64,000 nucleotides of DNA from Candidatus Latescibacterota bacterium (GCA_965221775.1 CBDCSU010000006.1:1056001-1120000); one strand, 5' to 3'; positions 6,064-53,094 are shown, counted from the stretch's first letter. Notes: generated from the sequence alone by a model not told the origin. Numbers and translations are program-made.

Positions 6064-6064
6064 G

Positions 6065-9538: not shown

Positions 9539-10771
9539 ATGCCCTTCAAGCTGCTGGCCCACGGCCTGGGCGCCAGGCCCCGGCGCATGTGGCACGACCG
9601 CCCCCTGAAGGACCGCTACGACGTCGTCATCATCGGCGGCGGCGCCCACGGTCTGGCCTGCGCCTACTACCTGGCACGGGACCACGGCGTCACCGACGTG
9701 GCCGTCCTCGAGAAGAGCTACATCGGCTCCGGGGGCTCGGGCCGCAACACCGCCATCCTGCGCTCCAACTACCTCACCCCCGAGGGAGTGCGCTTCTACG
9801 ACGCCAGCCTCGATCTCTACGGGGACCTGTCCGAGGATCTCGACTTCAACGTCATGTTCAGCCGCCGCGGCCACCTCACCCTGGCCCACGACGACGGCTC
9901 GGTGCGGACCATGCGCCGCCGCGCCGAGGTCAACCGCCTGCAGGGCGTCGACTCGCGCCTCGTCTTCCCCGACGAGCTGGCCGGGATCTGCCCGCAACTC
10001 GACCTCTCGGACCGCCCCCGCTTCCCCATCCACGCGGCCCTCTACCATCCGCCGGGAGGCATCATCCGCCACGACGCCGTCGTCTGGGGGTACGCCCGCG
10101 GCGCCGACGAGCGCGGTGTCGACATCCATCAGTACACCGAGGTCACCGGCATCGACGTCGTCGGCGGCGGCGTCACCGGCGTGCAGACCACCCGGGGGCC
10201 GGTGGCGGCCGGGACCGTGCTCTCCGCCACCGCCGGCTGGGCCTCCGACCTGGCCGCCATGGCCGGCCTGCGCCTGCCCCTCGACACCTTCCCCCTGCAG
10301 GCCTGCGTCACCGAGCCCCTCAAGCCCTTCCTCGACGTGGTCGTCGTCTCCGGCTCGCTGCACGTCTACATCAGCCAGTCCGGCCGCGGCGAGCTGGTCA
10401 TGGGCGCCAGCGTCGATCCCTTCACCTCCTACTCGGTGGCCGGCTCCCTCGACTTCCTCGAGGGCCTCTCGGGGCACGTGCTGGAGCTGTTCCCCTTCCT
10501 GTCGCAGGTCCGCATCCTGCGCCAGTGGGCGGGCCTGTGCGAGATGCCCCCCGACTACAGCCCCCTCATGGGGGTCACGCCGGTGAAGGGCTTCTACCTC
10601 GACGCCGGCTGGGGCACCTACGGCTTCAAGGCCTCGCCCATCTGCGGCAAGACCCTGGCCGAGCTGATCGCCACGGGGCGGTCTCCGGACCTCATCCACC
10701 CCTTCCGCCTCTCCCGCTTCGCCGAGTTCGACCCGGTGGGCGAGAAGGGCGCCGCCGCCGTGGGCCACTGA
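9539..10771 (+). CDS. mgdA: Sarcosine oxidase beta-like subunit / NMG dehydrogenase A
   Basis: GGGAHG FAD motif, GRNTAILRSNY, GWGTYGFKA, EKGAAAVGH terminus. Confidence 0.85.
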   Translation: MPFKLLAHGLGARPRRMWHDRPLKDRYDVVIIGGGAHGLACAYYLARDHGVTDVAVLEKSYIGSGGSGRNTAILRSNYLTPEGVRFYDASLDLYGDLSEDLDFNVMFSRRGHLTLAHDDGSVRTMRRRAEVNRLQGVDSRLVFPDELAGICPQLDLSDRPRFPIHAALYHPPGGIIRHDAVVWGYARGADERGVDIHQYTEVTGIDVVGGGVTGVQTTRGPVAAGTVLSATAGWASDLAAMAGLRLPLDTFPLQACVTEPLKPFLDVVVVSGSLHVYISQSGRGELVMGASVDPFTSYSVAGSLDFLEGLSGHVLELFPFLSQVRILRQWAGLCEMPPDYSPLMGVTPVKGFYLDAGWGTYGFKASPICGKTLAELIATGRSPDLIHPFRLSRFAEFDPVGEKGAAAVGH

Positions 10772-11055
10772 TGCTGCTGCTGGCCTGCCCCCACTGCGGC
10801 GAACGCAACGTCTCCGAGTTCCACTACGGCGGCGAGTACAGCCCGCGGCCCTCGCCCTCGACGGCGGCGGACGACGAGGAGTGGCACGACTACCTCTACC
10901 TGCGCGACAACCCCATGGGGACCCGCCGCGAGTGGTGGCTCCACCGGGCCGGCTGCGGCCTGTGGTTCCTGGTCGAGCGCGACCGGCGCACGAACGCCGT
11001 CTCCCGGACCTTCCGGTGGTCCCCGGACAGCGCGCCGGCCGAAGGCGCCGGATGA
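10771..11055 (+). CDS. mgdB: Sarcosine oxidase delta-like subunit / NMG dehydrogenase B
   Basis: MLLLACPHCGER...EF, YLYLRDNP, HRAGC Zn motif; TGATG overlap with the upstream gene. Confidence 0.87.
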   Translation: MLLLACPHCGERNVSEFHYGGEYSPRPSPSTAADDEEWHDYLYLRDNPMGTRREWWLHRAGCGLWFLVERDRRTNAVSRTFRWSPDSAPAEGAG

Positions 11056-11137
11056 GCCGCTCCGGCGGCCCCGGCGGCACCCGGGTGTGTTGGGCGGACC
11101 TCCTCCAGCTGCGACGCGGCGTCCGGAAGGGCCGGCC

Positions 11138-14100
11138 GTGAGCGGACCCTCGCACCGCATCGACCCGCGGCCGGGGGAGGTCCTGGACCGCGGCCGCAGC
11201 CTGCGCTTCCGCTTCGGCGGCCGCCAGTACAGCGGCTGCGCCGGCGACACGATCGCCTCGGCCCTGGCCGCCGCCGGGGTCTCCCTCTTCAGCCGCTCCT
11301 TCAAGTACCACCGGCCCCGCGGCCTGCTGTGCTGCGCCGGCCACTGCCCCAACTGCCTCGTGCAGGTCGACTCCGAGCCGAACGTGCGCGCCTGCACCCG
11401 GCCCCTTGAGCAGGACATGGCGGTCTGGCCGCAGAACGTCTGGCCCTCCCTCAAGCTCGATCTCATGGCCCTGACGGAGCGGCTCTCGCGCTTCCTGCCC
11501 GCCGGGTTCTACTACAAGACCTTCATCCGGCCGAAACGGCTGTGGCCCCTGTACGACCGGGTGCTGCGCACCGCCGCCGGCCTCGGCACCGTGGACGAGC
11601 GCACGCCGGAGGGGGAGCACGACAAGCAGTACCTGCACGCCGACGTGGTCGTCGCCGGGGGCGGGCCCACCGGACTGAGCGCCGCCCTCGCCGCCCGCGA
11701 GAGCGGCGCCCGGGTGCTGCTGCTCGACGAGAACCCCGCCGTCGGCGGCCACCTGCGCTACAGCGGCCGGACGCCGCGGGCCGAGCTCGACGCCGCCGGG
11801 GAGCGGCTGGACCAAGCCGGGGTGGAGGTGCTCACCGGCACCTCGGCCACCGGCTGGTACCAGGACCACTGGCTGTCGGCGGCGCGCGGCCAGCGGCTGT
11901 TCAAGATCCGCGCCCGCGCCGTGGTGGTCGCCACCGGCAGCCACGAGATCCCGCCGCTCTTCGACGGCAACGACCGCCCGGGGGTCATGCTCGGCACGGC
12001 GGCGAAACGGCTGCTGCGCCTCTACGGCGTGGCCCCGGGCCGGCGGGCGGTGGTGGTCACCGCCGGCGACGGCGGCTGGGAGGTAGCCGCCGACCTGCTG
12101 GCTGCCGGCGTCGAGGTCGCCGCCGTGGCCGACGAGCGGCCGGGAGCGGAGCCGGCCGCGGCGGCAGACCTGGCCGCTTCCGGGGCCGAGGTGCTCAGCG
12201 GCTACACGATCGGCGAGGCCCGGGGCCGCCGCCGCGTGCGCGAGGCCGTGCTCGTGCCGGTCTCCGGGACCGGCGACCGGCGCCGGGTGCGCTGCGACCT
12301 CGTCGCCGTCAGCACCGGGCGGCAGCCCTCGGCCGAGCTCGCCTGGATGGCCGGCGCCGGCAGCCGCTACGACGAGGATCACGCCGAGATGCGGGTGGTG
12401 GACCTGCCGGAGGGGCTGTTCCTCGCGGGACGGGTCGCCGGCCTGCAGGGGCCGGTGGAGGCCGAGGAGGAGCACGGCCGCCGGGCGGGCGCCGCCGCGG
12501 CTGACCATGCGCTGGGCGCTGGGACGGCGGAGGCCGGGCAGGCCGGGCAGGCCCTGGGCACGGGGATACCCGAGGCCACGGAGTCCGGCCAGGCCCTGGG
12601 CGCGGGGACAGCGGAGGCCGCGGGGGCCGCCCACGCCCCGGGGGACGACCCCGCGGTAACCGGAGACTCCCCGGGTGAGCCGCACGCTGCCGCGGCGGCG
12701 CACGCCCTCGGCGCGGGGACACCGGAGGCCGGGCAGGCCCCGGAGGCCGTCGCCGCCCGCCCCCTGGCCGCGGACCCCGCCGATGCCGCTGCGGACCCGC
12801 CGGGAGCTGAGCCCTCCCGCTCCTCGGCGCTGGTCACTGCTCCCGCCTGCGCCGGCGGCAAGCGCTTCGTCTGCCTGTGCGAGGACGTGACCGACACCGA
12901 CGTGGAGACCTCCCTGGCCGAGGGCTACGACCACCTCGAGCTGCTCAAGCGCTACACCACCATCGGCATGGGTCCCTGCCAGGGGCGAATGTGCAACCTC
13001 CACGGCATCCGCCTGTGCGCCGCCGGCACCGGCCGCTCGGTGCAGGAGACCGGGCGGACCACGGCGCGCCCCCCCGTGACGCCCGTCTCCCTGGGAACCC
13101 TCGCCGGCCAGAAGATGGAGCCGGTGCAGGTCTCGGCGATGCACGACTGGCACCTGGCCCGCGGCGCCCGCCTGATGACCGCCGGCACCTGGCTGCGGCC
13201 GGAGCGCTACGGGGACCCGGCCGAGGAGGTGGCGGCGGTGCGCAACGCCGTCGGCCTCATCGACGTGAGCCCCCTCGGCAAGCTGCGCCTCACCGGCCCG
13301 GGGGTGCCCGACCTGCTGGAGCGCCTCTACGTCAACTCCTGGCGGGACCTGCGCCGGGGCCGGGTGCGCTACGGCATGATGTGCAACGACGAGGGCGTCA
13401 TCCTCGACGACGGCGTCTGCGCCCGGCTGGCCGACGACGACTGGTACGTGAGCACCACCTCCACCGGCGCCGCCGGCGCCCTGGAGTGGGTGGAGTGGTG
13501 GCGCCAGTCGGGCTGGGGCGACGGCGTCCACGTCACCGACCTCACCGAGGCCCGGGCCGCCGTCAACCTGGCGGGTCCCGCCTCGCGCGAGGTCCTGCAG
13601 AAGCTCACCTCCCGCGACCTGTCGAAGGCGAAGTTCCCCTACATGCGCGCCCGGCGGACCCGCATCGCCGGCCTCTCCTGCCTGGTGCTGCGCATCGGCT
13701 TCACCGGCGAGCTGTCGTACGAGATCCACGGCCCGGCGGGCGGCGGACAGTATCTGTGGGAGGCGCTCATGGAGGCCGGGGCCGAGCACGGCATCCGCCC
13801 CTTCGGGGTGGAGGCGCAGCGCATCCTGCGCCTGGAGAAGGGCCACCTGATCGTCGGCCAGGACACGGACGCGCTGTCCGACGCCATCTCCGCCGACTCC
13901 GGATGGGCCGTCAAGCTGGAGAAGGAGGACTTCCTCGGGAAGCGGGCCCTGACCCGGGTGGCGGAGACCGGCCCGAAGCAGCGCCTCGTCGGGTTCCGCA
14001 TGACCCGCGACGACGCCGCCGTGGAGGAGGGCCTGCAGATCGTCACCCGCCGGTCCCGCCGCGGCTTCGACATCATCGGCTGGATCACCTCCTGCCGGCG

Positions 14101-42836: not shown

Positions 42837-42865
42837 TTGCGAATGTTGGGGGGTGCCCATAGTTT
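42837..42865 (+). promoter_or_regulatory. Putative sigma70 promoter of tRNA-Glu
   Basis: TTGCGA-N17-TAGTTT, ending about 37 nt before the tRNA. Confidence 0.45.
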
Positions 42866-42902
42866 CGAGCGCCTCCGCAGCACCCGCGTCAGTTCCCGCG
42901 TC

Positions 42903-42977
42903 GCTCCCATCGTCTAACGGTCAGGACTCCAGATTTTCAATCTGGCAACCGGGGTTCGACTCCCCGTGGGAGCACCA
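42903..42977 (+). tRNA. tRNA-Glu (TTC)
   Basis: Acceptor stem GCTCCCA/TGGGAGC, anticodon arm CCAGA-TTTTCAA-TCTGG, T-loop GGTTCGACTCC, encoded CCA. Confidence 0.97.
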
Positions 42978-42980
42978 AAC

Positions 42981-43764
42981 TACCTATTTCGTGCTGTTCC
43001 ACGTGGACAAGATCGGGCGCGAGGACGTGCTGGCCGTCCTGACGCCGATTTGGACCGACAAGCCTGAAACGGCTCGCCGGGTGCGCCGGAGCATCAAGGA
43101 CACACTCGCTTGGGCGCAGGCACACGGCTTCATCGAGCACAACGTGGCGGGAGAGGCCATTGACGGTGCGTTGCCATCCCTGACCAGCGTCAAGAAGCAC
43201 CTTCGAGCCCTGCCCTATCAGGAAGTCGCCGGGGCCTTGGAGACCGCGCAGGCGTCCAATGCCTCGCTGTCGGTCAAGCTCTGCATCCGCTTTCTCGTGC
43301 TGACGGCTTCACGTAGCGGGGAGGCTCGGGGAGCCAGGTGGAGCGAAATCGACTTGGAAGCCCGTGAATGGCGCATCTCCGCTAGCCGGATGAAGGCCGG
43401 CGCCGAGCACCGCGTACCTCTGTGTGACGCCGCCCTCTCAGTGCTTGAACAGGCCCGGGATCTCGATGATGGGAGTGGGTTGGTCTTCCCCTCTCCCTCT
43501 CGCCAAGGGAAGCCCTTGAGCGATATGGCCTTGACCAAATTGCTCCGGGACAACGGCCTTGCCGAACGCACCACGGTCCACGGGTTCCGATCCGCGTTCA
43601 GGACCTGGGCGGACGAGGCTACGGATGCCGACCATGCAATCAAGGAGTTGTCCCTCGCCCATGCCGTGGGCTCACAAGTTGAGCGCGCCTATGCCCGGTC
43701 GGATCTGCTGTCCAAGTGCCGTGAGCTGATGAGCCAGTGGGGAGATTTCGTCACCGGCAGCTGA
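42981..43764 (+). pseudogene. 5'-truncated P4-like tyrosine integrase
   Basis: SRSGEARGA (R), RMKAG (K), HGFRS (HxxR), LAH, RAY (Y). The arm-binding N-terminus and a convincing start are missing. Confidence 0.85.
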
Positions 43765-44820: not shown

Positions 44821-45534
44821 ATGGCGTCAAAGTCCCAAGTTCTAGAGGAGTTTTCTCTTTTCTCAGTCCCGACAGGGGGTATCGGCAGTTGGTTGACGAA
44901 GGATACTCATGACGATGTCTTCGCCCGCCTCGCAAAGATCAGTGAGCATCCGCTGCCTGCTGGGCAACTGAACCAACTGTTGGTCCTTGCACATGAAGCA
45001 CCCGTTAGCGACGGATTCTTTGAGTACTACTGGCTCAAGGCGCCCGAACAGCACTGCTACGACGTGCGAGATCTCCCCGGCTATTCCGAAGACTTCCTTG
45101 CTTCAGGGAGTTTCATTACCTCTCTATCTCATCTGAAGTGGGGGCTCTACCGCCTGTATGTCGATGGCCTTCTGTTCTTCGGGAACATCCGCTCCGCGTT
45201 TCACGGCCTTCGTGATCTGAGAGTGTGCGACCTAGAAGCGTTCTTCCGCGCTGAACGACTGGACACAGAGGCTATGAGGCAACGGGGTCCAACTCTGCCT
45301 TTGAAGTTGATTCCGAAGGACAGTCGGTATCTCATTTCGGAAATGGCATGCAAGTCTTACGGGGATACGCCTGGAGTAGAGGGTGATCTCGGAGAGTTCC
45401 TTCTCGAAGCCTATCGAAGACATGCTGCAGCGGGGAATCCCTCGCCAACGATTCGGCAGCTGTTGCATGAGGACGTTCCTGATGCGCGAGGTGGCCCTCT
45501 ACAACACGCAACAGTACCTCTCCGTGCTAAGTGA
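44821..45534 (+). CDS. Hypothetical protein; possibly the N-terminal half of a split gene
   Basis: Protein-like 237-aa ORF whose last ~20 codons overlap the next ORF in the +1 frame. Confidence 0.65.
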   Translation: MASKSQVLEEFSLFSVPTGGIGSWLTKDTHDDVFARLAKISEHPLPAGQLNQLLVLAHEAPVSDGFFEYYWLKAPEQHCYDVRDLPGYSEDFLASGSFITSLSHLKWGLYRLYVDGLLFFGNIRSAFHGLRDLRVCDLEAFFRAERLDTEAMRQRGPTLPLKLIPKDSRYLISEMACKSYGDTPGVEGDLGEFLLEAYRRHAAAGNPSPTIRQLLHEDVPDARGGPLQHATVPLRAK

Positions 45535-46144
45535 ACTCGATGTCTATGTTGCCACTAGTATGAGGACGCGAGAAGACTTCCGGAAAATGGCCGATACTTG
45601 CCAGACGATTTTCTCTAGTCCCGAACTGAAGAAGATGCATCTTCGCCACTTCGATCCGACGCTCAGTGCCGCCGCGGGACACGAAGACAAAGGACTGATC
45701 GAGTGTCTGATGGTGAAGTGCGCCAAGGTCCTTGTATATTGCGCTGGAGAGAAGGAGAGCTACGGAAAAGACGCAGAGGCGGCGATGGCACTGAGTCTTG
45801 GAAAGCCAGTGATCTTCTACTCCGACCAAGAGCAGCGAAGCAGATTTTATCGCGATGTGCATCCGCTGAGTCGTCTCATTGAGTTTGAAACTGGTGTGGC
45901 GGTTGGAGCAATGGTAACGGACAGTCCTGAGGAGGTCTCGCAGCTTCTTTGCAGGATTTTCCAGAACCGGATGGAGTATCGCCTTGAACAGCCGAAGCGC
46001 GGCTTTCTACGCCTCAAGGAGAAGCTAACTGACTCGGTTGTTCGTCTCCAGACGGATGACCAGCTTCTTAGCGAAGCATTCTGGAATCACTATCACAGAG
46101 AAGAGAAGAGGGCTAAGAGAGGTGTGGGAGGAAACTACGGGTGA
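45482..46144 (+). CDS. Nucleoside 2-deoxyribosyltransferase (NDT)-like Rossmannoid domain protein
   Basis: DVYVATSMR, FDPT, AKVLVY, SYGKDAEAAMALSLGKPVIFY resembles the NDT SxGTxxExGxAxALGKPV pattern. GAGGA lies 8 nt before ATG 45482. Confidence 0.6.
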   Translation: MREVALYNTQQYLSVLSELDVYVATSMRTREDFRKMADTCQTIFSSPELKKMHLRHFDPTLSAAAGHEDKGLIECLMVKCAKVLVYCAGEKESYGKDAEAAMALSLGKPVIFYSDQEQRSRFYRDVHPLSRLIEFETGVAVGAMVTDSPEEVSQLLCRIFQNRMEYRLEQPKRGFLRLKEKLTDSVVRLQTDDQLLSEAFWNHYHREEKRAKRGVGGNYG

Positions 46145-46604
46145 TGGGTCTCTTTAGCGGCAACGGCCAGATTTGGCTGGGTAGAGGGGGCGAAAGGTGT
46201 CGGATACCCCTTGGGGGCCCGCGGACGCCCTGCGCTACGCCTACATGCAGGACGGCAATGGGGTCGCACGGGAGGGAGCATCGGGGAGTCTGCTGACATG
46301 CTCCCTTGGAAGGAAACGCGTCCTGCTGGAGAACGTGGCCCCCGGAACGGGCGCGGTGGCGGGAGAAGATTCGAGCGAAGGCTCGTACACCGTGACATGG
46401 CGAGAAGTGATGCTCCGAGAGTGCAGCGGCTGAGGAGTGAGTTCTCGGCGCTTCTGAATCCTCACGAGTGCGAGGACAAAGAGCTGGTGGCGTGCAGCAG
46501 CAACTGGGTGTTATGCCGATGAGGAGCGGAACAAGCCTATGGAGGAGATCGACCTGCGCACCACGCAAGGGGCAAGTGGCCGGTAGAGGCCTTGGGCCTC
46601 CAAG

Positions 46605-47123
46605 ATGACAGATCGATCTCTTACAGACTGCAAGCGACGGCTGCTCGTTCTGTCTTGCTCGCGCCGGAAACGGGTGTCCGAGCGACCCATGCCGGCGATC
46701 GAGCGATACAATGGACCGCTATTCTTGACCTTGCGTCGCTTCCTGCGTATCTGTCCAGAGGGAGCGGGGCCGCTAGACATTTACGTCTTGTCGGCCGCCC
46801 ATGGGCTTATCCCCGGAGGGAAGCCAATCAAGTGGTATGATCGGAGAATGGACTTGAGAAGAGCGATTGAGTTGCAGCCCTCGGTCAAGAGAGCATTCTC
46901 AGAACTCCTACGGAACAACAGCTATTGCTCAATGTGCTTGGCACTCGGAAGGCTGTACTCTAGGGCGCTTGATGACTGGCAAGAGCTGATTCCATCAGAT
47001 GCGGAATGCACAATCGCTAAGGGTCCCTTAGGAGCAAAGGCCCGCGAGCTGAAGAGGTGGCTAAACGGCCCAGAAATAGAGCCACTGCAACAATTGCAGG
47101 AGCAACCAAATGGTCCGCATTGA
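46605..47123 (+). CDS. DUF6884/YaaA-like protein
   Basis: LVLSCSRRK, PAIERYNGPLF, YVLSAAHGLI, WYDRRM. Confidence 0.7.
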   Translation: MTDRSLTDCKRRLLVLSCSRRKRVSERPMPAIERYNGPLFLTLRRFLRICPEGAGPLDIYVLSAAHGLIPGGKPIKWYDRRMDLRRAIELQPSVKRAFSELLRNNSYCSMCLALGRLYSRALDDWQELIPSDAECTIAKGPLGAKARELKRWLNGPEIEPLQQLQEQPNGPH

Positions 47124-47457
47124 AATATTGGAGATAGGACCGGGAGAAGATGAAGCAAAGACGAAGAGAAGAATCGAAATAGACGCAATTGACCCATCGC
47201 AAATACCTCCGGTAAACCAAAGAGCCGGCAGTCTGATCGCGATGCCCGAAATTGAGGGAATCATCGACGAAATCACTCCGATGGATCAGGGGGAGGATCA
47301 GGAGCTGTATTATGCGAGAAACGTGCCCGTTCTCGAAGATGGGAATCTGGCGCGGACTCCGCTAGATCTCCCACACCATACAGGCCTACGAGTTGTGCTA
47401 GAGAGTATTCTTAGGGAATATGGTACGCCGGATAACCTCCAGATACGCCTTAGCTGA
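47110..47457 (+). CDS. Small acidic hypothetical protein
   Basis: AGGAG RBS; overlaps the upstream stop; 115 aa. Confidence 0.7.
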   Translation: MVRIEILEIGPGEDEAKTKRRIEIDAIDPSQIPPVNQRAGSLIAMPEIEGIIDEITPMDQGEDQELYYARNVPVLEDGNLARTPLDLPHHTGLRVVLESILREYGTPDNLQIRLS

Positions 47458-47468
47458 AGGGGGCTTGT

Positions 47469-48575
47469 ATGGCGCAGATTCTATCTCTTGGGGAATTCAA
47501 GACAGCCGCCGGCAGACATCTGTGCAAAGGCACTTGGACTCTAGAATATCACGACCGAACGCATCTGCCAAGGGGTGCTTTCGTTGCTCTTGCAAGCATC
47601 GAGATCGAAGATGGAGGACCAGGTGGCAACTGGTTTTTTCGCTTCGAGCCCAAGTCGCACACTGGTCTCGCGAAGGGTTTCGAAGCCGCTGAGAAGCTCT
47701 TCAGCAAGGGAATGGAAGCGACGAAGGCGGCTAAGGTTAGCCTGGATCAAATCAGGGAGTCGTTGGTTCGAGTGGGTCTCCTACAGCCGCGCTTTGAAAT
47801 AGAGGGTTCTCACTCTCTGGAGTGTAGTCGGTTTGCGATTGTCATATTGGATACCAACGCGCTGCGAAGTGGCTCGGCCTACCATCTACAGGAGCAATTC
47901 CCCGATACTCGGATTTGGATGGTCGTTCCAAGTGTCACATTGATGGAAATTGGGGAGAGGCTTGCTAGTGTGGCAAGCAGAGATAGAGGGGGATGTAAGC
48001 CTCAGAACAGTGCTCTCCTCAGGACGCGGCCCCAGGTTACAATTGCGCCTGGGGAGATAATGAGGATAAGGGAGCAGTTCCCTGCAGAGACGTTAGAACT
48101 AGCTCCGGAGTTGCTCCGCGTCTTTCGGGGCTACGAGACGAGACATGGGGACAAGGAGCCTGATCGAGTCTCCATCAACGACCGGCTGATTCTGGAGAGC
48201 ATTAAGGATCTTCAGCGGCAGCGCAATGTGTCCTCGGGCGTGTACTTGATGTCCGGAGACAAGGATATTTCCCGGTTGGCTCATCTTGAAGGGATTCAGA
48301 CGATTTTTCCGGAAGTGCCAGACCTGGAAACGACGGGCATCTACTCAGTGCGGTACTCGTTAGAGTCTCGCGCACATGTGGTGTGCTCCATCTTCCGACT
48401 GCTGTGGGACTTGGCCCATGTCTTCAGTTGTATCCGGATGAGCAGAGATGGAGCGCCGGGCGGGGAGAGCGACTTGGCACTGTCCTACTACTACGAGTCA
48501 AAGCTGGTGAAGGATTGGGCAGACGACAAACTGGAGGTGCAAGTTGGACCCGGTTGTCCCAGCGACGCTGTTTAG
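47469..48575 (+). CDS. PIN-domain nuclease-like protein with N- and C-terminal extensions
   Basis: VILDTNAL, VVPSVTLMEI, SINDRLILE, LMSGDKDI (PIN acidic residues). Confidence 0.78.
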   Translation: MAQILSLGEFKTAAGRHLCKGTWTLEYHDRTHLPRGAFVALASIEIEDGGPGGNWFFRFEPKSHTGLAKGFEAAEKLFSKGMEATKAAKVSLDQIRESLVRVGLLQPRFEIEGSHSLECSRFAIVILDTNALRSGSAYHLQEQFPDTRIWMVVPSVTLMEIGERLASVASRDRGGCKPQNSALLRTRPQVTIAPGEIMRIREQFPAETLELAPELLRVFRGYETRHGDKEPDRVSINDRLILESIKDLQRQRNVSSGVYLMSGDKDISRLAHLEGIQTIFPEVPDLETTGIYSVRYSLESRAHVVCSIFRLLWDLAHVFSCIRMSRDGAPGGESDLALSYYYESKLVKDWADDKLEVQVGPGCPSDAV

Positions 48576-49383
48576 CGTCTTGGACAGGTTGGCAACAAGG
48601 ATGGGGCCTGTCCGAATAGCCGATCTGGAATCTACGCGCCGGTTCTCCAATCGGCGCTTCGCTGAAATTGGGAGAGTAATCGAGGGCCTCGGCCTTGCGC
48701 AGCGGGTAGGCCAAACGCTAGTACCGACTGGAGCGTTGGGACCCTTTGTTTCCTATTGGGAGCAAGGAGATCTTGATGGGATTAGCGGTTTCTTTCAACG
48801 ATATGTCCCGTACGACGCTTTCCGTGGATACCTGCAAGCGGAGAGATGCATTGCTCTGCCGCGGAAGGGCGAGCGAGGGGCACGGCGCAGGATGGGCAAA
48901 GAGTTGAGGTCCGGCGGCACCGGACTGACCTTCGTAGCTATTGATACCTTCAAGTGGTGGGGGATGGCGGTCGGGGAGGTGTATCTGTCGCCCTTCGGAG
49001 AGAGAGAGATCTACTGGGGTGGGGAGCGGCCCGCATTGGATGAGTTCGAAGCAATACTACAAGTTGAGTATGCGGAGATCCGGCCATTGGATGGGTTCGC
49101 GAACGTTGGGAGGCTGGCGGACCGTGTCTGCCGGCAGCTTTGCATTTCATTTCCGTGCTTTGAGAGGCTCTTCCTGGGACTGTGGCAGCGCCGGAGGTTT
49201 GCCACGGGGACATCCTTACAGCGCGGCCACCGAGGAAGAGGGGCGATACAGATCCTTCGGCCTCGGTCAGAAGCAAAGAGGCGCGGACTCCCGGTTGAGT
49301 GGACGGCTAAGCGTTTTGTGGAGGACGGTTTGGTGATCCATGGCCGGAGCGTTAAGGTGGTCAAACTTAGGCCAGGGCCTTAG
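48544..49383 (+). CDS. Hypothetical basic protein, probably with winged-helix domains
   Basis: GGAGG before TTG; IEGLGLAQR and FEAILQVEYAEI...VGRLADRVCRQLCISFPCFERLF patterns. Confidence 0.65.
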   Translation: MDPVVPATLFSVLDRLATRMGPVRIADLESTRRFSNRRFAEIGRVIEGLGLAQRVGQTLVPTGALGPFVSYWEQGDLDGISGFFQRYVPYDAFRGYLQAERCIALPRKGERGARRRMGKELRSGGTGLTFVAIDTFKWWGMAVGEVYLSPFGEREIYWGGERPALDEFEAILQVEYAEIRPLDGFANVGRLADRVCRQLCISFPCFERLFLGLWQRRRFATGTSLQRGHRGRGAIQILRPRSEAKRRGLPVEWTAKRFVEDGLVIHGRSVKVVKLRPGP

Positions 49384-49391
49384 GGACCCAA

Positions 49392-50624
49392 ATGGCAAGG
49401 AGGGCGATGCTTGTGGCTCGTTCAATTGGTGATCCAGATCTGGAGCAAATCCGGAGCGAGTTCAGTCAGGAGGTTCCTCGTAATCCGTACGAGGACTTCT
49501 TTCTGCTGGCGAATCCGTTTCCAGACCTTGGACAGTTCTGCGGGCTCTGCGTGAACCAAGAGTCGGTAAAGGCAGAATTCACCCGTGTACTTAGGGAACT
49601 GTACGGGGGATCGCAGTCCCGAGTGATGACCATACTGGGTAGCACAGGAGCGGGGAAGACGAATCTTCTACGGTTTCTCGAAGGGACACTGAAAGGCTGG
49701 AGAGAACCCGGTCCGGAGAGAAGAGCCATTACCGATCTGTTTACCGTGTTTGTTGAGCAGCCGCAGGGGAGCTACTTAGAAATGCACCGGCAGATCGTTG
49801 GTCAGTTGGGAGAGGTTTTCTTTAGCGAGTTCTTCACCAGAGTGCGTCGGGGCGAAGTTGACTTGGGGGAGCTATCTGAGGCATTGGGTGATGTGAACCC
49901 AGAATTGCTGCAAGCACTTCGGTACATTGCGGGGGCGGAGTCGGGACAACTGCCCTTGGGCGAACCGCGTTCGTACCGGCTGTTGGGCGACTGGTTGCAG
50001 GGCGGAAGGGTGGGGGTTGCGGAGAGGAGGAGACTGGGAAGCGTCTCCGCAGAGGTCGGAAGATCGGGTACCGTCGCCATTAGGTTTCTGTCAGACTTTG
50101 TTCGGGTCCTGTTGGAGGCGAAGCTTCTTAGGGGGTTAGTGATATTCGTCGATGAATTTGAGGAAGTGTTTTCCGGAGTGTCAGCGGCAAAGCAGGCGCA
50201 GTATGCTCAAGACTTGAGGAATTTGATCGATAGCCACCCGAAGGGAGTGGTCTTTGTCATCGGTACGGCACCGCTTGGTGAGCAACTGCAGAGTGTCTCG
50301 CCTCCCCTGCAGCGGCGTCTAGGAAGAGGGGTGGAGGTGGAGCCGATCGCGGATGAGAAGACTGCTCTGGAATACGCACAGGCGTACGTTGGGTGGGGTA
50401 GGGAGAGATTTGTGGAGGAGAGGCAAGTCCCGGTGTGTGTGCCAGAAGAGTGTGAGGAGAGAGACCAACCGTACTACCCGTTGTGTGAGGAGAGCGTGAA
50501 GGGAGTGTTCAGAGACCTGCAGGGGGAATTGGGATCCCAGGAGGTTGTGCCTGGTGACTTTCTTCCGGGGCTGAATTTTCTACTCTACAAGCGGGTCTAT
50601 GGAGAGGGGCGATGCGAGAGGTGA
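49392..50624 (+). CDS. P-loop ATPase (AAA+/BrxD-DpdH-like)
   Basis: NPF, Walker A GSTGAGKT, DWLQG, Walker B IFVDEFE, QDLRNLID, PLQRRL arginine finger. Confidence 0.85.
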   Translation: MARRAMLVARSIGDPDLEQIRSEFSQEVPRNPYEDFFLLANPFPDLGQFCGLCVNQESVKAEFTRVLRELYGGSQSRVMTILGSTGAGKTNLLRFLEGTLKGWREPGPERRAITDLFTVFVEQPQGSYLEMHRQIVGQLGEVFFSEFFTRVRRGEVDLGELSEALGDVNPELLQALRYIAGAESGQLPLGEPRSYRLLGDWLQGGRVGVAERRRLGSVSAEVGRSGTVAIRFLSDFVRVLLEAKLLRGLVIFVDEFEEVFSGVSAAKQAQYAQDLRNLIDSHPKGVVFVIGTAPLGEQLQSVSPPLQRRLGRGVEVEPIADEKTALEYAQAYVGWGRERFVEERQVPVCVPEECEERDQPYYPLCEESVKGVFRDLQGELGSQEVVPGDFLPGLNFLLYKRVYGEGRCER

Positions 50625-50645
50625 GGGGGGAGGGGGGAGGGGGGG
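50625..50645 (+). repeat. G-tract G6-A-G6-A-G7
   Basis: Read directly, starting right after the ATPase stop codon. Confidence 0.9.
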
Positions 50646-50762
50646 AGAGTTCGCCCAAGGATGGAGAGTTGAGTTGGTGGAATCGTGGCTTCATGTGTTC
50701 CGGCCCCGGCGGCTGGGAAGGAACGAGAAGTTGGCGTGGCTAGATTCTAGTGGCGATAGGGG

Positions 50763-51968
50763 ATGACCAAGGCTCTTCTATCGACCTTCGACGTGCCTGG
50801 GCTATTTGCTAGCTATCGGATCGGGGACTATCCGAGTGCTGGGCTACGTTGCCACCCGTGGAGGTTGACCCAGACGAAAGGGATATTGCTCAATGCGTTT
50901 GACCTACTGGCGAATAGGCGAACCCGGAAGTCTGTAGCCGAGATGCGAAGTGGCGGGGGGCACTTGCACGAGTACGTTGAATTTGATGGTCCCCTGATCC
51001 TTGACTCAGGAGCGTTTAATTTCCTGCGGCGGGAGGAACTGACCATATCGGCTAGTGAGGTCCTATCGATTGGGATTGAACTGGGTGCGGATGTGTCGGT
51101 TGTACTGGACCACCCATTCACGCCCACGACAGATAGTGATGAAGTTGAGAGGCGCTGGGCGAACACTGTGAGGAACACCCGGGAGATGTTTCGTGCGCTG
51201 GAGGGGGTCAACCCTTCTCTTCTTTCGGAGGGCTTTAGGCTGATACCAGTTGTCCACGGCCATAATGAAGAGAGTCTTTCGAAGGGCATAGAGGACATTA
51301 GGGAGATTCTGGGACGGGAGCCGGAGATCCTTGGAATCGGGAGCCTAGCACCGCTTGCGCTGAATGGCAGCAAACGTACGGTTGTAGAGGTCATTACGGA
51401 GACGAGGAGGCTATTGCCGAGTACGCACCTGCATTGTTTCTCGCTTGGTTCCGCGCTACTGATGCTCCTGGCCTTTTACTGCGGGGCAGACAGCGTTGAT
51501 TCGCAAACCTGGATGATGAGTGCTGCGTTCAAGCAAGTGCAATTGCCGGGCTTGCACCTGACCCGTTTCTCACGCCGTGAGGCTGAGAGGAATCCTGAAA
51601 GGTATGGACGGGATCGTGGGGTATTCGCCGACCACCTTGTCCGGCTTATTGGAGAGGAGAGTTTCTGCCCGAAGGATTGGGACACGGGAGAGGCTTGGCC
51701 AATCAGGGATGAGCGAGATGCGTTGGCATACATTGAGTATCTGGAAGATGGTCCGGGAGAGAACCATGTTCATCGACGCGCATGTCACAATTTGCATGTG
51801 TTCAACTTTGAGGCTGGCCGCGTTCGAAGGGAGATGAGTGTAGGCTCCCTCGATAGCTTCGTGGAAAGGCGTATCGAGGGAACGGTGTATCGAAGAGTGT
51901 GGGAATATGCACGTGAGAGGAAGGTGAGGAAGGGCACCCTAGGCGATTGCTATAGCGGGATTTCCTGA
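50763..51968 (+). CDS. tRNA-guanine transglycosylase (TGT)/DpdA-like protein
   Basis: LILDSGAF, VLDHP, IPVVHG, LGIGS, HLHCFSLG, GADSVDS and HNL in TGT order; no CxCxxC motif. Confidence 0.85.
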   Translation: MTKALLSTFDVPGLFASYRIGDYPSAGLRCHPWRLTQTKGILLNAFDLLANRRTRKSVAEMRSGGGHLHEYVEFDGPLILDSGAFNFLRREELTISASEVLSIGIELGADVSVVLDHPFTPTTDSDEVERRWANTVRNTREMFRALEGVNPSLLSEGFRLIPVVHGHNEESLSKGIEDIREILGREPEILGIGSLAPLALNGSKRTVVEVITETRRLLPSTHLHCFSLGSALLMLLAFYCGADSVDSQTWMMSAAFKQVQLPGLHLTRFSRREAERNPERYGRDRGVFADHLVRLIGEESFCPKDWDTGEAWPIRDERDALAYIEYLEDGPGENHVHRRACHNLHVFNFEAGRVRREMSVGSLDSFVERRIEGTVYRRVWEYARERKVRKGTLGDCYSGIS

Positions 51969-51983
51969 CGTGTATGTGTATTT

Positions 51984-52355
51984 TGTACAGTGACGGTAAT
52001 GACCTGACACTGCCCCTGCTCGGGGATGAGGGTAGCGGCGATTTTCTGCATGGCAGCCTCCTTGGCTCGGGGCTTGGTTGGGACCCCCTTCTTGAAAGCC
52101 TGCAGCGGCGTCAGGCCGTTCATGTTGCGGCCCTGGTGGGGGCGCTTCTCGTTGTACTGGACCAGGTAAGCATCCAGATCCTTCTGCATCGGGTCAATCG
52201 ACTCATACCAGGTCTTGCGGGCCCACGACGCGGAAGTGCCCGTCGAGAATGGTCCGGTGCAGTCGCTCCAAGAAGCCGTTGGTCTGGGGACTCTTCATCT
52301 TGGTGGTGCGGTGCTCGATCCCTTCCAGCTGCAGGAAGAACTCATAGGGATGCCG
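51984..52355 (-). mobile_element. IS481-family 3' fragment with frameshifted transposase
   Basis: HPYE, SPQTNGFLERLHRT, YNEKRPHQG; frameshift near 52220; end begins TGTACAGTGACGGTAATGACCTGACA at 51984. Confidence 0.82.
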
Positions 52356-52376
52356 AATTCGCGCAGTTAGGGAACA

Positions 52377-52815
52377 CGTAGGTACAAACCGGGTTGATGG
52401 TAACACTTCTGACCGGTTTGATGCGTGACACTCCCCGGTATCTTGGACCGACCCCCAAGCAGGAGGTTGGTCGATGCCGTGGATGGAGACCGCACCCGTG
52501 GAGCAGAGAGAGCGATTCATCGCTGATCATCGACCCGGTCACTTGACGATGACGGAGCTGTGCCGACGATACGGCATCAACCGCAGACGGGCTACAAGTG
52601 GCTTCGACGACACGCCGACGAGGGGCGGCCGGGCCTGCAGGACCGCAGCCATGCGCCGCACCACTGCCCCCACCGCCTGGAGCCGGAGATCGCCGGGCTG
52701 ATCCTCCGGGCGCGGCGACGGCATCCCGACTGGGGGCCTCGGAAACTGCTGACCTGGCTGACGTCCCGTCACCCGAGGATCTCGTCGTGGCCAGCGGTCA
52801 GCACGGCGGGCGATC
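52377..52815 (+). mobile_element. Second IS481-family element, 5' fragment with frameshift
   Basis: AGGAGG then MPWMET..EQRERF...TELCRRYGI, shift, TGYKWLRR..EG..GLQDRSHAPH...WGPRKL...PAVST. Repeated GTAACACT/GTGACACT motifs near the end. Confidence 0.82.
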
Positions 52816-52839
52816 CGAGACCGGCACAGGACCCTGAAT

Positions 52840-53094
52840 GACCGTATCGAGACGACATTCTTCGGCCAATCTCTGGACTTGGGAGCGTCTGGTATGGGCT
52901 ACACGCTCAACAATGACGGCGGGGGGCTGGGCAAGTTCAACGTCGGTGGATCGTTCGTGAATGGCGAGCCAGTGCTCGACGGGGAGTTTGAGTTGGCCCG
53001 CCGGCAGAAGATTGATGTCAGGCTCTCCAACCTCCAAGTGGCCTACTTGGTGAAGTATGGAGCGATCGCGGTCGGGTACATCCCCAAGCAGTGA
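52840..53094 (+). pseudogene. 3' remnant of an unknown gene truncated next to the IS fragment
   Basis: Protein-like frame DRIETTFFG...GYIPKQ* with no convincing start. Confidence 0.35.

What the first reader, a model, noticed from the sequence alone, without database searches (positions are those of the whole stretch)
46605..51968. Intact six-gene TGT/PIN/ATPase block: candidate undescribed deazaguanine-linked defence or modification system
Seen: six co-directional genes (DUF6884/YaaA-like, 115-aa acidic protein, PIN nuclease, wHTH-like, P-loop ATPase, TGT-like). The first five overlap or lie within 12 nt of each other, inside a tRNA-anchored low-GC island. Known: the Dpd system uses a TGT paralog (DpdA), DpdB and YaaA-like DpdC to put 7-deazaguanines in DNA, with DpdE-K helicases/PLD for restriction; QatABCD and type IV CBASS also reuse queuosine-pathway enzymes. 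This block has no DpdB/DndB-like gene, helicase, PLD, QueC, TatD or cyclase, and has a PIN nuclease instead, so it matches none of those layouts as I know them. Inference: a base-exchange 'mark' module coupled to an ATPase-gated PIN effector (restriction-like or abortive infection).
Basis: partly seen in the sequence, partly recalled or inferred. Interest (0 to 1): 0.9.

Follow-up and report, generated by a model that had tools for sequence, protein, structure and literature searches.

The report
Conserved TGT–PIN–ATPase deazaguanine defence cassette
Six neighbouring genes on a foreign DNA island form a cassette that recurs in unrelated uncultured bacteria; it most likely marks DNA with a queuosine-type base and cuts unmarked DNA, using a gene layout not yet described.

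Summary
Six intact co-directional ORFs (46605-51968) lie in a low-GC island beside tRNA-Glu. They encode a DUF6884/DpdC-like protein, a 115-aa acidic protein, a PIN nuclease, a tandem winged-helix protein, a BrxD-like AAA+ ATPase and a TGT-family enzyme with all catalytic Asp residues.

The block is a real, mobile unit. The same gene order occurs in 15 of 24 TGT-anchored loci from other genomes and metagenomes, and 6 contig-truncated loci are consistent with it. In 168 genomes of the phylum, the TGT and the PIN gene occur in the same 6.

Three results point to a 7-deazaguanine substrate and a mark-plus-effector design:
- a YhhQ (preQ0 transporter family) gene directly precedes the cassette in 10 of 18 loci;
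- the DUF6884+TGT pair alone is coupled elsewhere to a YprA-like helicase-PLD or to HerA;
- haloarchaeal plasmids carry a homologous TGT/winged-helix/ATPase triad beside queC-folE-queE-queD.

PIN/winged-helix fusion proteins exist. The cassette is not Dpd, BREX, CBASS-IV, Qat, BRIGADE or BRC by their defining features, and six full-text searches found no description. Best reading (about 0.5): a DpdB-independent, Dpd-like modification-restriction system. The substrate (DNA, RNA or protein) is untested. Verdict: new variant of a known kind.

The parts
42903..42977 (+). tRNA-Glu(UUC) at the high-GC/low-GC boundary of the island
   Evidence: ARAGORN. The GC drop begins here. No repeat of its 3' end elsewhere in the window.
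42978..43764 (+). Tyrosine integrase fragment lacking its N-terminal arm-binding part
   Evidence: Phage_integrase 64.4 bits. Phage_int_M is matched only from profile position 40. The ORF 42853-43764 runs through the tRNA.
46605..47123 (+). g1: DUF6884 (YaaA/DpdC-like) protein, basic (pI 9.65)
   Evidence: PF21818 29.9 bits against a cut-off of 30. S17-C18-S19..K22 and L62-S63-A64..G67 are invariant in 13 of 13 homologues. These match the CxxxK and LSAxxG motifs that Pfam's authors give (PMC11701544, passage). PADLOC: PDC-M57A in 13 of 13 and DpdC weakly in 5 of 13 family members.
47110..47457 (+). g2: small acidic protein (pI 4.46) of unknown fold
   Evidence: No hit in Pfam, PADLOC, NCBIfam or PHROGs. 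ESM Atlas best score 0.81, a lead only. Found by tblastn in 9 loci; a 140-150 aa acidic ORF fills the same slot in 6 more.
47469..48575 (+). g3: PIN-domain nuclease with an N-terminal beta/alpha domain (1-115) and a C-terminal domain
   Evidence: PIN_4 21.4 bits, residues 126-278. AF2 pLDDT 79.4. Foldseek PIN hits 3i8o (4.6e-4), 3ix7, Nmd4, SMG6 and VapC20. D128, E160, D238 and D264 are invariant in 12 of 12.
48544..49383 (+). g4: basic (pI 10.3) tandem winged-helix protein
   Evidence: AF2 pLDDT 86.8, pTM 0.86. MarR-type wHTH at residues 5-76 (Z 7.5, rmsd 2.3, 71 aligned) and a winged helix at 163-277 (Z 7.3). Weak Foldseek hits to multi-winged-helix proteins. The TTG start is supported by the invariant MDP N-terminus. 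Fused to g3-like proteins in P0152 and P0161.
49392..50624 (+). g5: BrxD-like (ORC/Cdc6-type) AAA+ ATPase
   Evidence: AAA_22 26.6, AAA_16 24.8 and BrxC_BrxD 18.3 bits. BrxD models hit at 1e-6 and 8e-7. ESM Atlas 0.98 to clusters carrying BrxC_BrxD and AAA_22. Walker A G83..G88-K89-T90 and Walker B D254-E255 are invariant in 14 of 14.
50763..51968 (+). g6: TGT-superfamily enzyme of a separate clade, about 395 aa, with no PUA or C-terminal tRNA-binding domains
   Evidence: PF01702 68.4 bits. TgtA 74 bits (cut-off 350) and DpdA 28.8 bits (cut-off 200). D81-S82-G83, D116 and D246 are invariant in 24 of 24 and align to ArcTGT D95, D130 and D249. No CxCxxC zinc motif; H342 aligns to ArcTGT H307.
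51950..52841 (.). Broken transposase-like ORFs abutting and overlapping the g6 stop codon
   Evidence: Read by eye from the translations (rve-like and HTH-like pieces in several frames). Not scanned against a library.

Best explanation
The six genes are one horizontally acquired defence cassette of the Dpd kind, that is, a 7-deazaguanine-based modification-restriction system in a new layout.

Inferred steps:
1. g6, a catalytically intact TGT-family enzyme, exchanges guanine in the host's DNA for preQ0. The host can probably make preQ0 itself, since it has QueC; many relatives bring a YhhQ-type importer.
2. g1, a DUF6884 protein of the DpdC/YaaA fold, binds the flipped modified base and converts it further, by analogy with DpdC to the 7-amido form.
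3. g4 (tandem winged-helix DNA binder), g5 (BrxD-like ORC/Cdc6-type ATPase) and g3 (PIN nuclease) form the discrimination and effector part, with the small acidic g2 as a regulatory subunit. They attack nucleic acid that lacks the mark.

TGT, g4 and g5 travel together even in archaea, and PIN is fused to g4 in some relatives. I therefore think that writer and effector sit in one ATP-gated complex, as in type I/III R-M or BREX, rather than in two independent modules. No DpdB is needed.

Shown here: gene integrity, conserved synteny, co-occurrence, folds, catalytic residues, module swapping, and linkage to deazaguanine supply genes. Inferred: the substrate (DNA), the base inserted, the chemistry of g1, the target of PIN, the complex, and the defence phenotype.
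For: 1. Unit. The order g1-g2-g3-g4-g5-g6 is complete in 15 of 24 TGT-anchored loci (12 if three near-duplicate pairs count once). Another 6 loci are cut by contig ends but consistent, 1 has IS elements in place of g1/g2, and 2 have only the g1+g6 pair.
2. Co-occurrence. In 168 genomes of the phylum, g6 is found in 6 and g3 in the same 6, 3-4 kb apart, in 3 of 49 genera.
3. Composition. Cassette GC is below flank GC in 22 of 23 loci.
4. Deazaguanine link. A Vut_1/YhhQ gene (181 bits) lies directly upstream of g1 in 10 of 18 loci that have g1. Homologous TGT2/g4-like/g5-like triads sit beside queD-queE (Haloarcula) or queC-folE-queE-queD (Halorientalis). hhalign probabilities are 98.9, 93.6 and 99.0. 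The host has a canonical Tgt and two QueC matches over the Pfam cut-off, so QueC is present.
5. Mark module. g1+g6 alone sit next to a 1840-aa DEAD/MZB/PLD helicase (L016), or next to PLD, Mrr and X+HerA (L024). g6 stays 55-66% identical while g3-g5 fall into a roughly 50% set and a roughly 32% set, so the modules evolve and probably recombine separately.
6. Catalysis. The TGT Asp triad, the g1 CxxxK/LSAxxG motifs, the four PIN acidic residues and Walker A/B are invariant.
7. DNA leaning. g1 and g4 are basic. g4 is tandem winged-helix. DUF6884 is YaaA-like and DNA-binding, and DpdC carries it (PMC11701544 and PMC11888242, passages). Sibling modules are DNA helicases, PLD and HerA.
8. g3-g4 fusion proteins exist: P0152 (BLASTP 2e-35 to g3; 2.4e-27 to the g4 profile) and P0161 (hhalign 99%).
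9. Defence or mobile context elsewhere: a DUF1156 methylase plus GIY-YIG, an N6_N4 methylase, HEPN-MNT and Schlafen/AlbA_2 neighbours.
Against: - No experiment or read-level evidence shows a modified base. DNA as the substrate is inferred.
- g6 is only remotely like bona fide DpdA: 22% identity, E 9e-8; hhalign probability 84%. In PADLOC its family hits the model named only 'TGT' (PDLC00913) about as weakly (16 of 24) as DpdA (20 of 24).
- g6 lacks the CxCxxC zinc motif that DpdA of the same phylum keeps (sequence printed). The protein-directed Cap10 also lacks the zinc site (10.1101/2025.04.06.647259, passage).
- PIN domains are most often RNases.
- In the haloarchaeal relatives the TGT2/winged-helix/ATPase triad coexists with a separate DpdA+DpdC-like fusion. 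The TGT2-type enzyme therefore need not be the writer.
- The window's g1 is 0.1 bit under Pfam's cut-off and does not itself hit DpdC models.
- This copy lacks YhhQ and sits in a decayed island with a truncated integrase and IS debris at the g6 stop codon.
Confidence: 0.5

Rival explanations
1. Regulatory deazaguanine transfer, as for Cap10 or TIM-B. In this reading g6 does not mark DNA. It binds or transfers a deazaguanine onto a protein or small molecule that keeps the PIN/ATPase effector off until infection, giving an abortive-infection-type system.
For: TGT-family proteins are used this way in type IV CBASS, and this is proposed for TIM-B (passages of 10.1101/2025.04.06.647259 and 10.64898/2026.10.19.760177). 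Like Cap10, g6 lacks the zinc motif. It keeps an invariant His-x-His-Cys ahead of the nucleophile Asp; any likeness of this to Cap10's H226/D248 pair rests on similar numbering only and was not aligned. 16 of 24 family members weakly hit PADLOC's model named 'TGT'. PIN is typically an RNase effector.
Against: No QueC-like conjugating enzyme (Cap9) and no CD-NTase is in the cassette. The constant partner of g6 is a DNA-binding-fold DUF6884. The g1+g6 pair is swapped between DNA helicase/PLD/HerA modules, which is the pattern of R-M marks. g2 shows no conserved N-terminal acceptor motif.
Confidence: 0.12
2. Modification-dependent (type IV-like) restriction. In this reading g6 and g1 read 7-deazaguanines that phages put in their own DNA, and they direct the PIN/ATPase part against such DNA. 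The host DNA is not marked.
For: Small second TGT paralogues sit inside ATPase or helicase modules next to a separate long DpdA in haloarchaeal and Nostoc plasmids. Both the TGT and DUF6884 folds bind flipped deazaguanine bases (PMC10164549 and PMC11701544, passages).
Against: Linkage to a free-base importer (YhhQ) in 10 of 18 loci and to que genes argues for supply of a substrate to be inserted. The nucleophile Asp246 is invariant, and a mere reader would not need it.
Confidence: 0.1
3. RNA-level system. In this reading g6 modifies tRNA (its best HMM is archaeal tRNA TgtA) and the PIN domain is a tRNA or rRNA nuclease. Modified self tRNA would be spared, or the pair would act as a toxin-immunity unit.
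For: The best-scoring models are tRNA TGTs: TgtA 74 bits, tgt_general 54.5 bits. The closest structural relatives of g3 include the RNA-decay PIN domains of Nmd4 and SMG6 and the VapC20 toxin.
Against: g6 lacks the C-terminal and PUA domains of ArcTGT, at 401 aa against 582 aa. The host already has a canonical Tgt. The partners are a YaaA-fold protein, a tandem winged-helix protein and an ORC-type ATPase, and sibling modules are DNA enzymes.
Confidence: 0.08
4. A mobile element's self-protection and addiction cassette. In this reading deazaguanine modification shields the island or plasmid DNA from host restriction, as in phages, and PIN/ATPase/g2 act as a stabilising toxin-antitoxin-like unit rather than antiviral immunity.
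For: The cassette always has a lower GC than its flanks (22 of 23 loci) and lies next to integrase or IS genes. Archaeal relatives are on plasmids. The acidic g2 next to PIN resembles an antitoxin-toxin pair.
Against: 0 relatives were found in the viral contig collection. The cassettes are chromosomal, in decayed islands that no longer look mobile. The mark module is coupled to classic restriction-type modules elsewhere.
Confidence: 0.1

Closest known systems
Dpd system (DpdA/B/C plus DpdD-K; Salmonella Montevideo type)
   Same: It has a TGT-family enzyme with the same Asp triad and a DUF6884/YaaA-fold partner like DpdC. It is linked to preQ0 supply genes, and an R-M-like pairing of mark and nuclease is inferred. 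Per the YprA preprint, Dpd restriction also uses a BrxC-like ATPase (DpdH/I).
   Different: g6 is not a DpdA equivalog (28.8 bits against a cut-off of 200; 22% identity to a true DpdA). There is no DpdB, no SNF2/DEAD/YprA helicases and no PLD. PIN, a tandem winged-helix protein, a short BrxD-like ATPase and a small acidic protein stand in their place, and the effector genes lie between the two 'mark' genes.
Haloarchaeal Dpd-like loci on plasmids (probably the BRIGADE systems of bioRxiv 10.1101/2025.09.15.676423)
   Same: They carry a homologous triad of TGT2, a g4-like protein and a BrxD-like ATPase (hhalign probabilities 98.9, 93.6 and 99.0), with deazaguanine biosynthesis genes beside it.
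   Different: The gene order there is TGT-g4-g5. A separate 969-aa DpdA+DpdC-like fusion is present, with a PD-(D/E)xK nuclease and no PIN or g2. Per the preprint, BRIGADE is defined by YprA helicases and was found only in halophilic archaea. I saw passages only, not its figures or supplements, so the identification is my inference.
Type IV CBASS Cap9/Cap10
   Same: A TGT-family protein without the zinc site is used in defence, and 7-deazaguanine chemistry is involved.
   Different: The cassette has no CD-NTase and no QueC-like Cap9, and its partners are different.
BREX type 2 BrxD, and the BRC system with TGT (PMC12839542)
   Same: g5 is a stand-alone ORC/Cdc6-type ATPase like BrxD. BRC also recruits a TGT into a multi-ATPase defence locus.
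   Different: The cassette has no PglZ, PglX, BrxC, BrxHI, HerA, GNAT or DUF4007. g5 scores 28.5 bits against a BrxD cut-off of 350.
PADLOC candidate PDC-M57
   Same: Component A is the best PADLOC match of the g1 family (13 of 13 members, best E 5.6e-9).
   Different: The match covers only about half of the profile, and no other cassette protein hits a PDC-M57 model. The make-up of PDC-M57 could not be looked up (0 papers).

Membership tests
TGT superfamily (PF01702) | Pfam score over the gathering cut-off, and the catalytic Asp (general acid/base), base-binding Asp and nucleophile Asp | tested here: met
   68.4 bits against 26.3. D81, D116 and D246 are invariant in 24 of 24 and align to ArcTGT D95, D130 and D249.
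Dpd system | DpdA equivalog (NF041059, at least 200 bits) | tested here: not met
   28.8 bits. hhalign against true DpdA of the phylum gives probability 84%, E 7.6e-6.
Dpd system | DpdB (ParB/DndB-like ATPase) present | tested here: not met
   No such hit among the six ORFs and two upstream ORFs in Pfam, PADLOC or NCBIfam.
Dpd system | DpdC (DUF6884/YaaA-fold) present | tested here: inconclusive
   g1 scores DUF6884 29.9 against 30, with both motifs present. The window's g1 hits no DpdC model. 5 of 13 family members hit weakly (best 1.3e-4).
Dpd system | DpdD-K restriction genes (SNF2, DEAD and YprA helicases, PLD) | tested here: not met
   None in the block or the island. A sibling locus, L016, does have a YprA-like helicase-PLD.
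Dpd system | dPreQ0 or dADG in genomic DNA | not testable with these tools
   This needs LC-MS or modification-aware sequencing.
PIN-domain nucleases | PIN fold with four conserved acidic residues | tested here: met
   PIN_4 is just under the cut-off (21.4 against 21.9). Foldseek probability is 1.00 to PIN structures 3i8o, 3ix7, 8rdd and 2hww. D128, E160, D238 and D264 are invariant.
BREX (BrxD) | BrxD equivalog score, and PglZ/PglX/BrxC in the locus | tested here: not met
   NF033438 28.5 bits against a cut-off of 350. No PglZ, PglX or BrxC hits.
Type IV CBASS | CD-NTase plus QueC-like Cap9 plus TGT-like Cap10 | tested here: not met
   No CD-NTase or QueC-family hit in the block. The two QueC copies of the genome over the Pfam cut-off lie on another contig, C5; a third, weak match under the cut-off lies on C4.
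QatABCD | QueC-family QatC and TatD-like QatD | tested here: not met
   No such hits.
BRIGADE | YprA-family helicase(s) with Dpd-like genes; halophilic archaea | tested here: not met
   There is no helicase in the window's island. The definition is taken from passages of the preprint.
BRC (BREX-related capture) system | HerA/FtsK universally present, plus PglZ, DUF6079 and DUF4007 | tested here: not met
   None in the window; tblastn with HerA and X from sibling loci finds nothing. The definition is taken from passages of PMC12839542.
PDC-M57 (PADLOC candidate) | All components present | tested here: inconclusive
   Only the A model is hit, weakly (2.3e-6, residues 12-85). The composition of the system is unknown to me.

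The most novel reading that the evidence does not exclude
TGT, the tandem winged-helix protein and the BrxD-like ATPase form an ancient three-part machine shared by bacteria and haloarchaea. This machine both writes and reads a 7-deazaguanine mark on DNA without DpdB. In the bacterial form it directly gates a PIN nuclease that is sometimes fused to the winged-helix subunit. That would be a self-contained base-exchange R-M complex of a new architecture, with the TGT acting as sensor as well as enzyme.
Probability: 0.25. Interest if true: 0.8.

Novelty: new variant of a known kind. Interest (0 to 1): 0.68.

Why it matters
Only a few kinds of DNA base-exchange marking are known in cells, Dpd being the cellular example. 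If this reading is right:
- A compact six-gene cassette that does the job without DpdB or helicases, using a separate TGT clade, would widen the known enzymology of 7-deazaguanine in DNA.
- It would give a tractable minimal system for asking how a TGT is loaded onto duplex DNA.
- It would add a PIN/BrxD-type effector to the list of restriction modules.
- The TGT/winged-helix/ATPase triad shared with haloarchaeal plasmids hints at an older core than the named Dpd genes.
- If the target is instead a protein or RNA, that would extend the newly found non-canonical uses of TGT enzymes in immunity.

The cassette is rare: the g4 family has 85 representatives at E up to 0.001 among 1.84 billion proteins. 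It is so far seen mostly in uncultured lineages, which may explain why it has been missed.

Tried and rejected
- Profile searches of the g4, g5 and g3 alignments against PDB sequences gave nothing meaningful.
- The ESM Atlas gave no usable lead for g2 (best score 0.81).
- Complex prediction with g3 + g5 + g2 as partner returned 'no answer'. The score was 0.80, but a control with g5 replaced scored 0.79, so I draw nothing from it for or against binding.
- The promoter and terminator scan of 46000-52300 was at chance level (2 found against 2.6 expected; 8 against 4.7).
- No att-like repeat of the tRNA end was found.
- The viral contig scan with the TGT alignment found 0 relatives.
- The sequencing-run look-up listed no RNA holder. 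There were 4 holders from one study, which is probably the source sample, so I did not lay reads and say nothing on expression.
- tblastn found no remnants of YhhQ, X, HerA or the L016 helicase in the window.
- I considered that g5 replaces DpdB as the insertion ATPase and that g4/g5 belong only to the writer. I did not adopt this as the main reading, because g1+g6 occur without g4/g5 (L016, L024) and PIN is fused to g4 in relatives. It remains possible and is folded into the 'one complex' model.
- I considered that the window's g6 is truncated by the IS debris. I rejected this because its C-terminus aligns to the end of the family.
- The two upstream ORFs (44821-46144) are not part of the unit; they have no homologues in the 24 loci.
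- A direct comparison of g1, g4 and g5 with named DpdC, DpdG, DpdH and DpdI proteins could not be made. The true-DpdA locus I fetched (L038) and the Nostoc plasmid (L042) carry no genes so named.
- Literature. These searches found no description of this cassette in the held library: 'DUF6884', 'PDC-M57', DpdA/PIN/defense/7-deazaguanine, transglycosylase/YaaA/PIN/defense system/deazaguanine, DpdA/HerA/YhhQ, deazaguanine+BrxD and DpdC+'PIN domain'. Subscription papers are not covered, and supplements are closed. The supplementary tables and Figure S1 of the YprA/BRIGADE preprint, and Supplementary Data S1 of PMC12839542, could list related loci that I could not see.

Full report
**1. What is in the window.**
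One search confirms six + strand ORFs at exactly the reported coordinates:
- g1 46605-47123
- g2 47110-47457
- g3 47469-48575
- g4 48544-49383
- g5 49392-50624
- g6 50763-51968

The first five overlap or lie 8-11 nt apart. g6 follows after 138 nt.

Library scans give the following:
- g1 scores DUF6884 29.9 bits against a cut-off of 30.
- g2 has no hit. It is acidic, with a pI of 4.46.
- g3 scores PIN_4 21.4 bits against a cut-off of 21.9.
- g4 has no hit.
- g5 gives weak AAA_22, AAA_16, nSTAND and BrxD hits.
- g6 scores TGT 68.4 bits. Its best NCBIfam model is archaeal TgtA (74 bits, cut-off 350). DpdA reaches only 28.8 bits (cut-off 200).

The block has a GC of 0.557 and the 43.0-54.6 kb stretch 0.581, against 0.716 and 0.697 on either side. 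tRNA-Glu and an integrase fragment lacking its N-terminal part mark the left border. Broken transposase-like frames, read by eye and not scanned, begin at the g6 stop codon. I found no att-like repeat. The island is therefore real by composition, but it is decayed.

**2. The cassette is a conserved unit.**
The g6 protein has at least 120 close relatives at 57-68% identity and about 395 aa in the 90% clusters. Source names include Anaerolineae. Anchoring on g6 gave 6 loci in species-representative genomes (five Latescibacterota, one Poribacteria), 18 metagenome loci and none in viral contigs.

tblastn and ORF clustering sort the 24 loci as follows:
- The full order g1 to g6 occurs in 15 of 24. 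Three pairs are near-duplicates (L018/L019, L022/L025, L027/L029).
- 6 loci are cut by contig ends but agree as far as they reach.
- L001 has two IS elements where g1/g2 should be, and its g3 is N-terminally clipped.
- L016 and L024 have g1 directly followed by g6, with nothing in between.

g2 is the fastest-evolving gene. tblastn finds it in 9 loci. In 6 others the same slot holds a 140-150 aa acidic ORF with a similar C-terminal motif.

In the 168 genomes held for the phylum, g6 (E up to 1e-30) occurs in 6. g3 (E up to 1e-10) occurs in the same 6, on the same contig 3-4 kb away. These 6 fall in 3 of 49 genera. None of the other 9 genomes of the window's own genus has it with these queries.

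Cassette GC is below flank GC in 22 of 23 loci, and flank GC ranges from 0.44 to 0.63. This is the signature of an accessory cassette that moves between hosts.

**3. What the proteins are.**
- g6: D81-S82-G83, D116 and D246 are invariant in 24 of 24. They align to D95, D130 and D249 of Pyrococcus ArcTGT. In passages of PMC10164549, the equivalent DpdA residues are the general acid/base (Asp95), the base-binding Asp130 and the nucleophile Asp256. The family lacks the CxCxxC zinc motif but keeps the last zinc-ligand position (H342). It has a longer insert after the nucleophile and none of ArcTGT's C-terminal tRNA-binding domains.
- g1: the SCSxxK and LSAxxG motifs are invariant in 13 of 13. These are the two motifs that Pfam's authors give for DUF6884, which they describe as YaaA-like, DNA-binding and predicted to flip a base (PMC11701544, passage). 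A preprint states that DpdC carries DUF6884 (PMC11888242, passage), while PMC12839542 calls DpdC DUF328, the YaaA family proper. In PADLOC all 13 family members hit PDC-M57A, and 5 of 13 weakly hit DpdC.
- g3: the AF2 model (pLDDT 79.4) has a PIN core that matches 3i8o, 3ix7, Nmd4, SMG6 and VapC20. D128, E160, D238 and D264 are invariant.
- g4: the AF2 model (pLDDT 86.8, pTM 0.86) is a chain of winged-helix domains. It has a MarR-like domain at residues 5-76 (Z 7.5) and a winged helix at 163-277 (Z 7.3). Foldseek gives weak hits to multi-winged-helix proteins such as UFL1, SelB, AlkX/YcaQ and FokI. These Z values are in the range the tool calls common, so only the fold class is claimed. g4 is basic, with a pI of 10.3.
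- g5: Walker A and B are invariant. The ESM Atlas puts it at 0.98 with clusters that carry BrxC_BrxD and AAA_22. BrxD is classed as a stand-alone ORC/Cdc6 AAA+ ATPase (PMC12839542, passage).

**4. Evidence on function from relatives.**

(a) Substrate supply. A Vut_1/YhhQ gene (181 bits) lies immediately upstream of g1 in 10 of the 18 loci that contain g1. YhhQ is named as the preQ0 transporter that accompanies dpd islands (PMC11888242, passage). The window has no YhhQ, but its genome has a canonical Tgt and two QueC matches over the cut-off.

(b) Module swapping.
- L016 reads YhhQ, g1, g6, then a 1840-aa protein with DEAD, Helicase_C, MrfA-Zn and PLD domains.
- L024 reads PLD, Mrr, g1, g6, X, HerA.
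- X+HerA also follow g6 in the six-gene loci L020, L022/L025 and L027. Remnants are present in L018/L019 and L026.
- g6 identity to the window stays at 55-66% in all loci. g3-g5 split into a set near 50% and a set near 32% that does not track g6.

(c) Fusions. The g4 family is rare: 85 representatives at E up to 1e-3 and 27 at up to 1e-30 among 1.84 billion proteins. It includes 620-660 aa proteins whose N-terminal half is g3-like. P0152 gives BLASTP 2e-35 to g3, and P0161 gives hhalign probability 99%. PIN and the winged-helix protein therefore very probably work as one unit.

(d) An archaeal counterpart. All 5 plasmids that match g5 are haloarchaeal (Haloarcula, Halomicrobium, Halobaculum, Salinigranum, Halorientalis). 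All 5 also match g6 within 1-2 kb.
- In Haloarcula the operon is TGT2 (344 aa), a 293-aa protein, then a 386-aa 'BREX ATP-binding' protein. These are homologous to g6, g4 and g5, with hhalign probabilities of 98.9% (E 2e-17), 93.6% (E 2e-7) and 99.0% (E 4e-18).
- Beside it lie queD and queE, an EVE-domain gene, a PD-(D/E)xK nuclease and a 969-aa protein that is DpdA (232 bits) with a DpdC/PDC-M57A-like C-terminal part.
- Halorientalis has queC-folE-queE-queD, the long TGT, and then the same triad.
- These loci look like the Dpd-like 'BRIGADE' systems that a 2025 preprint reports only from halophilic archaea and defines by YprA helicases (passages). Its main text does not mention TGT, and I could not see its figures or supplements.

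(e) True DpdA. Matches over the NCBIfam cut-off occur in 9 of 168 genomes of the phylum. G160 carries both a true DpdA and the cassette. g6 is only 22% identical to such a DpdA (E 9e-8), and hhalign gives probability 84%. g6 is much closer to the haloarchaeal TGT2.

**5. Most likely mechanism.**
I read the cassette as a Dpd-like modification-restriction system, with a probability of about 0.5.
- g6 inserts preQ0 into DNA.
- g1 processes the inserted base, as DpdC does.
- g4, g5 and g3, with g2, discriminate and cleave.

Because TGT, g4 and g5 are linked across domains of life and g3 is fused to g4 in relatives, one ATP-gated complex that both marks and restricts fits better than two independent modules. 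DpdB is absent. A cited statement says DpdB may be dispensable in some clusters (PMC12839542, passage). That phage DpdA enzymes act without DpdB is my recollection, not a call.

Points against this reading:
- The substrate is untested.
- g6 is about as weakly similar to PADLOC's model named 'TGT' (16 of 24) as to DpdA (20 of 24).
- g6 lacks the zinc motif, as does the protein-directed Cap10, while DpdA of this phylum keeps CxCxxC.
- PIN domains are usually RNases.
- The archaeal loci have a separate DpdA-DpdC fusion, so a TGT2-type enzyme might be a reader or have another target.

The rivals and my odds are: Cap10/TIM-B-like regulatory transfer (0.12), a sensor of phage deazaguanine DNA (0.10), an RNA-level system (0.08), and self-protection or addiction of a mobile element (0.10).

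**6. Comparison and novelty.**
By their defining features the cassette is not Dpd (DpdA equivalog, DpdB and DpdD-K not met). It is not BREX, type IV CBASS, QatABCD, BRIGADE or BRC either, as set out in the membership tests. No PADLOC model of any system covers g2, g3 or g4. The full-text searches found no description. The limits are that subscription journals and supplements were not visible.

I rate it a new variant of a known kind. The logic (deazaguanine mark plus nuclease) and two of the folds are those of Dpd. The TGT clade, the PIN/winged-helix/BrxD-like effector, the gene order and the independence from DpdB are new as far as I can tell.

**7. Limits.**
- The complex prediction gave no verdict.
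- No RNA data were listed.
- Metagenome loci carry no taxonomy. Several are near-duplicates, so locus counts overstate independence.
- The window's copy is intact at the sequence level, but whether it is expressed or active is unknown.

Noticed in passing
window 45383-46144 (+), overlapping ORF 44821-45534: A 253-aa ORF 460 nt upstream of g1 gives weak hits to nucleoside 2-deoxyribosyltransferase (phrog_355 2.2e-4; PF05014 0.067) and SLOG cluster 4 (0.019). That is another base-exchange or nucleotide-sensor fold in the same island. It has no homologue next to the cassette in the other 24 loci.
   Followed up: partly
L038 (G144:C1:5329000-5348900), genes at 9450-11219(-), 7634-9718(-), 5804-7630(-): In a Latescibacterota genome a bona fide DpdA (PADLOC 328 bits) is followed by a 694-aa protein X and then HerA and UvrD-like genes, not by DpdB/DpdC. 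X has no PADLOC hit, and its L027 homologue has no Pfam hit. X is 47% identical to the X that follows g6 in L027. A TGT/X/HerA triad therefore recurs with two different TGT clades.
   Followed up: partly
L016 1184-9175: A compact four-gene layout: YhhQ, DUF6884, TGT, then a 1840-aa protein with DEAD, Helicase_C, MrfA-Zn (DUF1998) and PLD domains. This looks like a minimal Dpd-like system without DpdB.
   Followed up: partly
L021:1004-1762, L026:5624-6397, L027:1650-2438, L018:1787-2548, L017:1943-2728, L024:4008-4748: In these loci g1 is 246-262 aa long. It carries a conserved C-terminal domain of about 85 aa (core W-Y-V-E-V-D ... R-V-A-P-K-W-L). In L024, the only one of these scanned, the domain has no Pfam hit at E up to 0.01. 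The window's g1 lacks it.
   Followed up: no
L042 (Nostoc plasmid NZ_AP017297.1) and L041 (Aulosira plasmid AP018313.1): The Nostoc plasmid has a long annotated DpdA plus a second 315-aa TGT paralogue wedged between two DEAD/DEAH helicases. The Aulosira plasmid has a 353-aa TGT-like gene after a putative exonuclease and a 1041-aa protein. Small TGT paralogues embedded in effector-type modules may be a wider theme.
   Followed up: no
L002:2615-5875 and the same genes in L003, L006, L014: In four related Latescibacterota loci a 949-aa DUF1156 DNA methyltransferase and a small GIY-YIG protein lie directly upstream of g1. Housekeeping suf genes lie downstream.
   Followed up: partly
L004/G025 (g6), L018 and L019 (g3, g4), L001 (g1-g3): Several copies look damaged. 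g6 of G025 has an in-frame TGA. g3 is split into two ORFs and g4 carries a 73-aa insertion in L018/L019. IS elements replace g1/g2 in L001. The cassette is often decaying, as expected for costly accessory genes.
   Followed up: partly
window 51950-52841: Frame-broken transposase-like ORFs start 19 nt inside the 3' end of g6 on the opposite strand. Any genes that once followed g6, such as X+HerA as in L027, could have been lost here; tblastn finds no remnant.
   Followed up: partly
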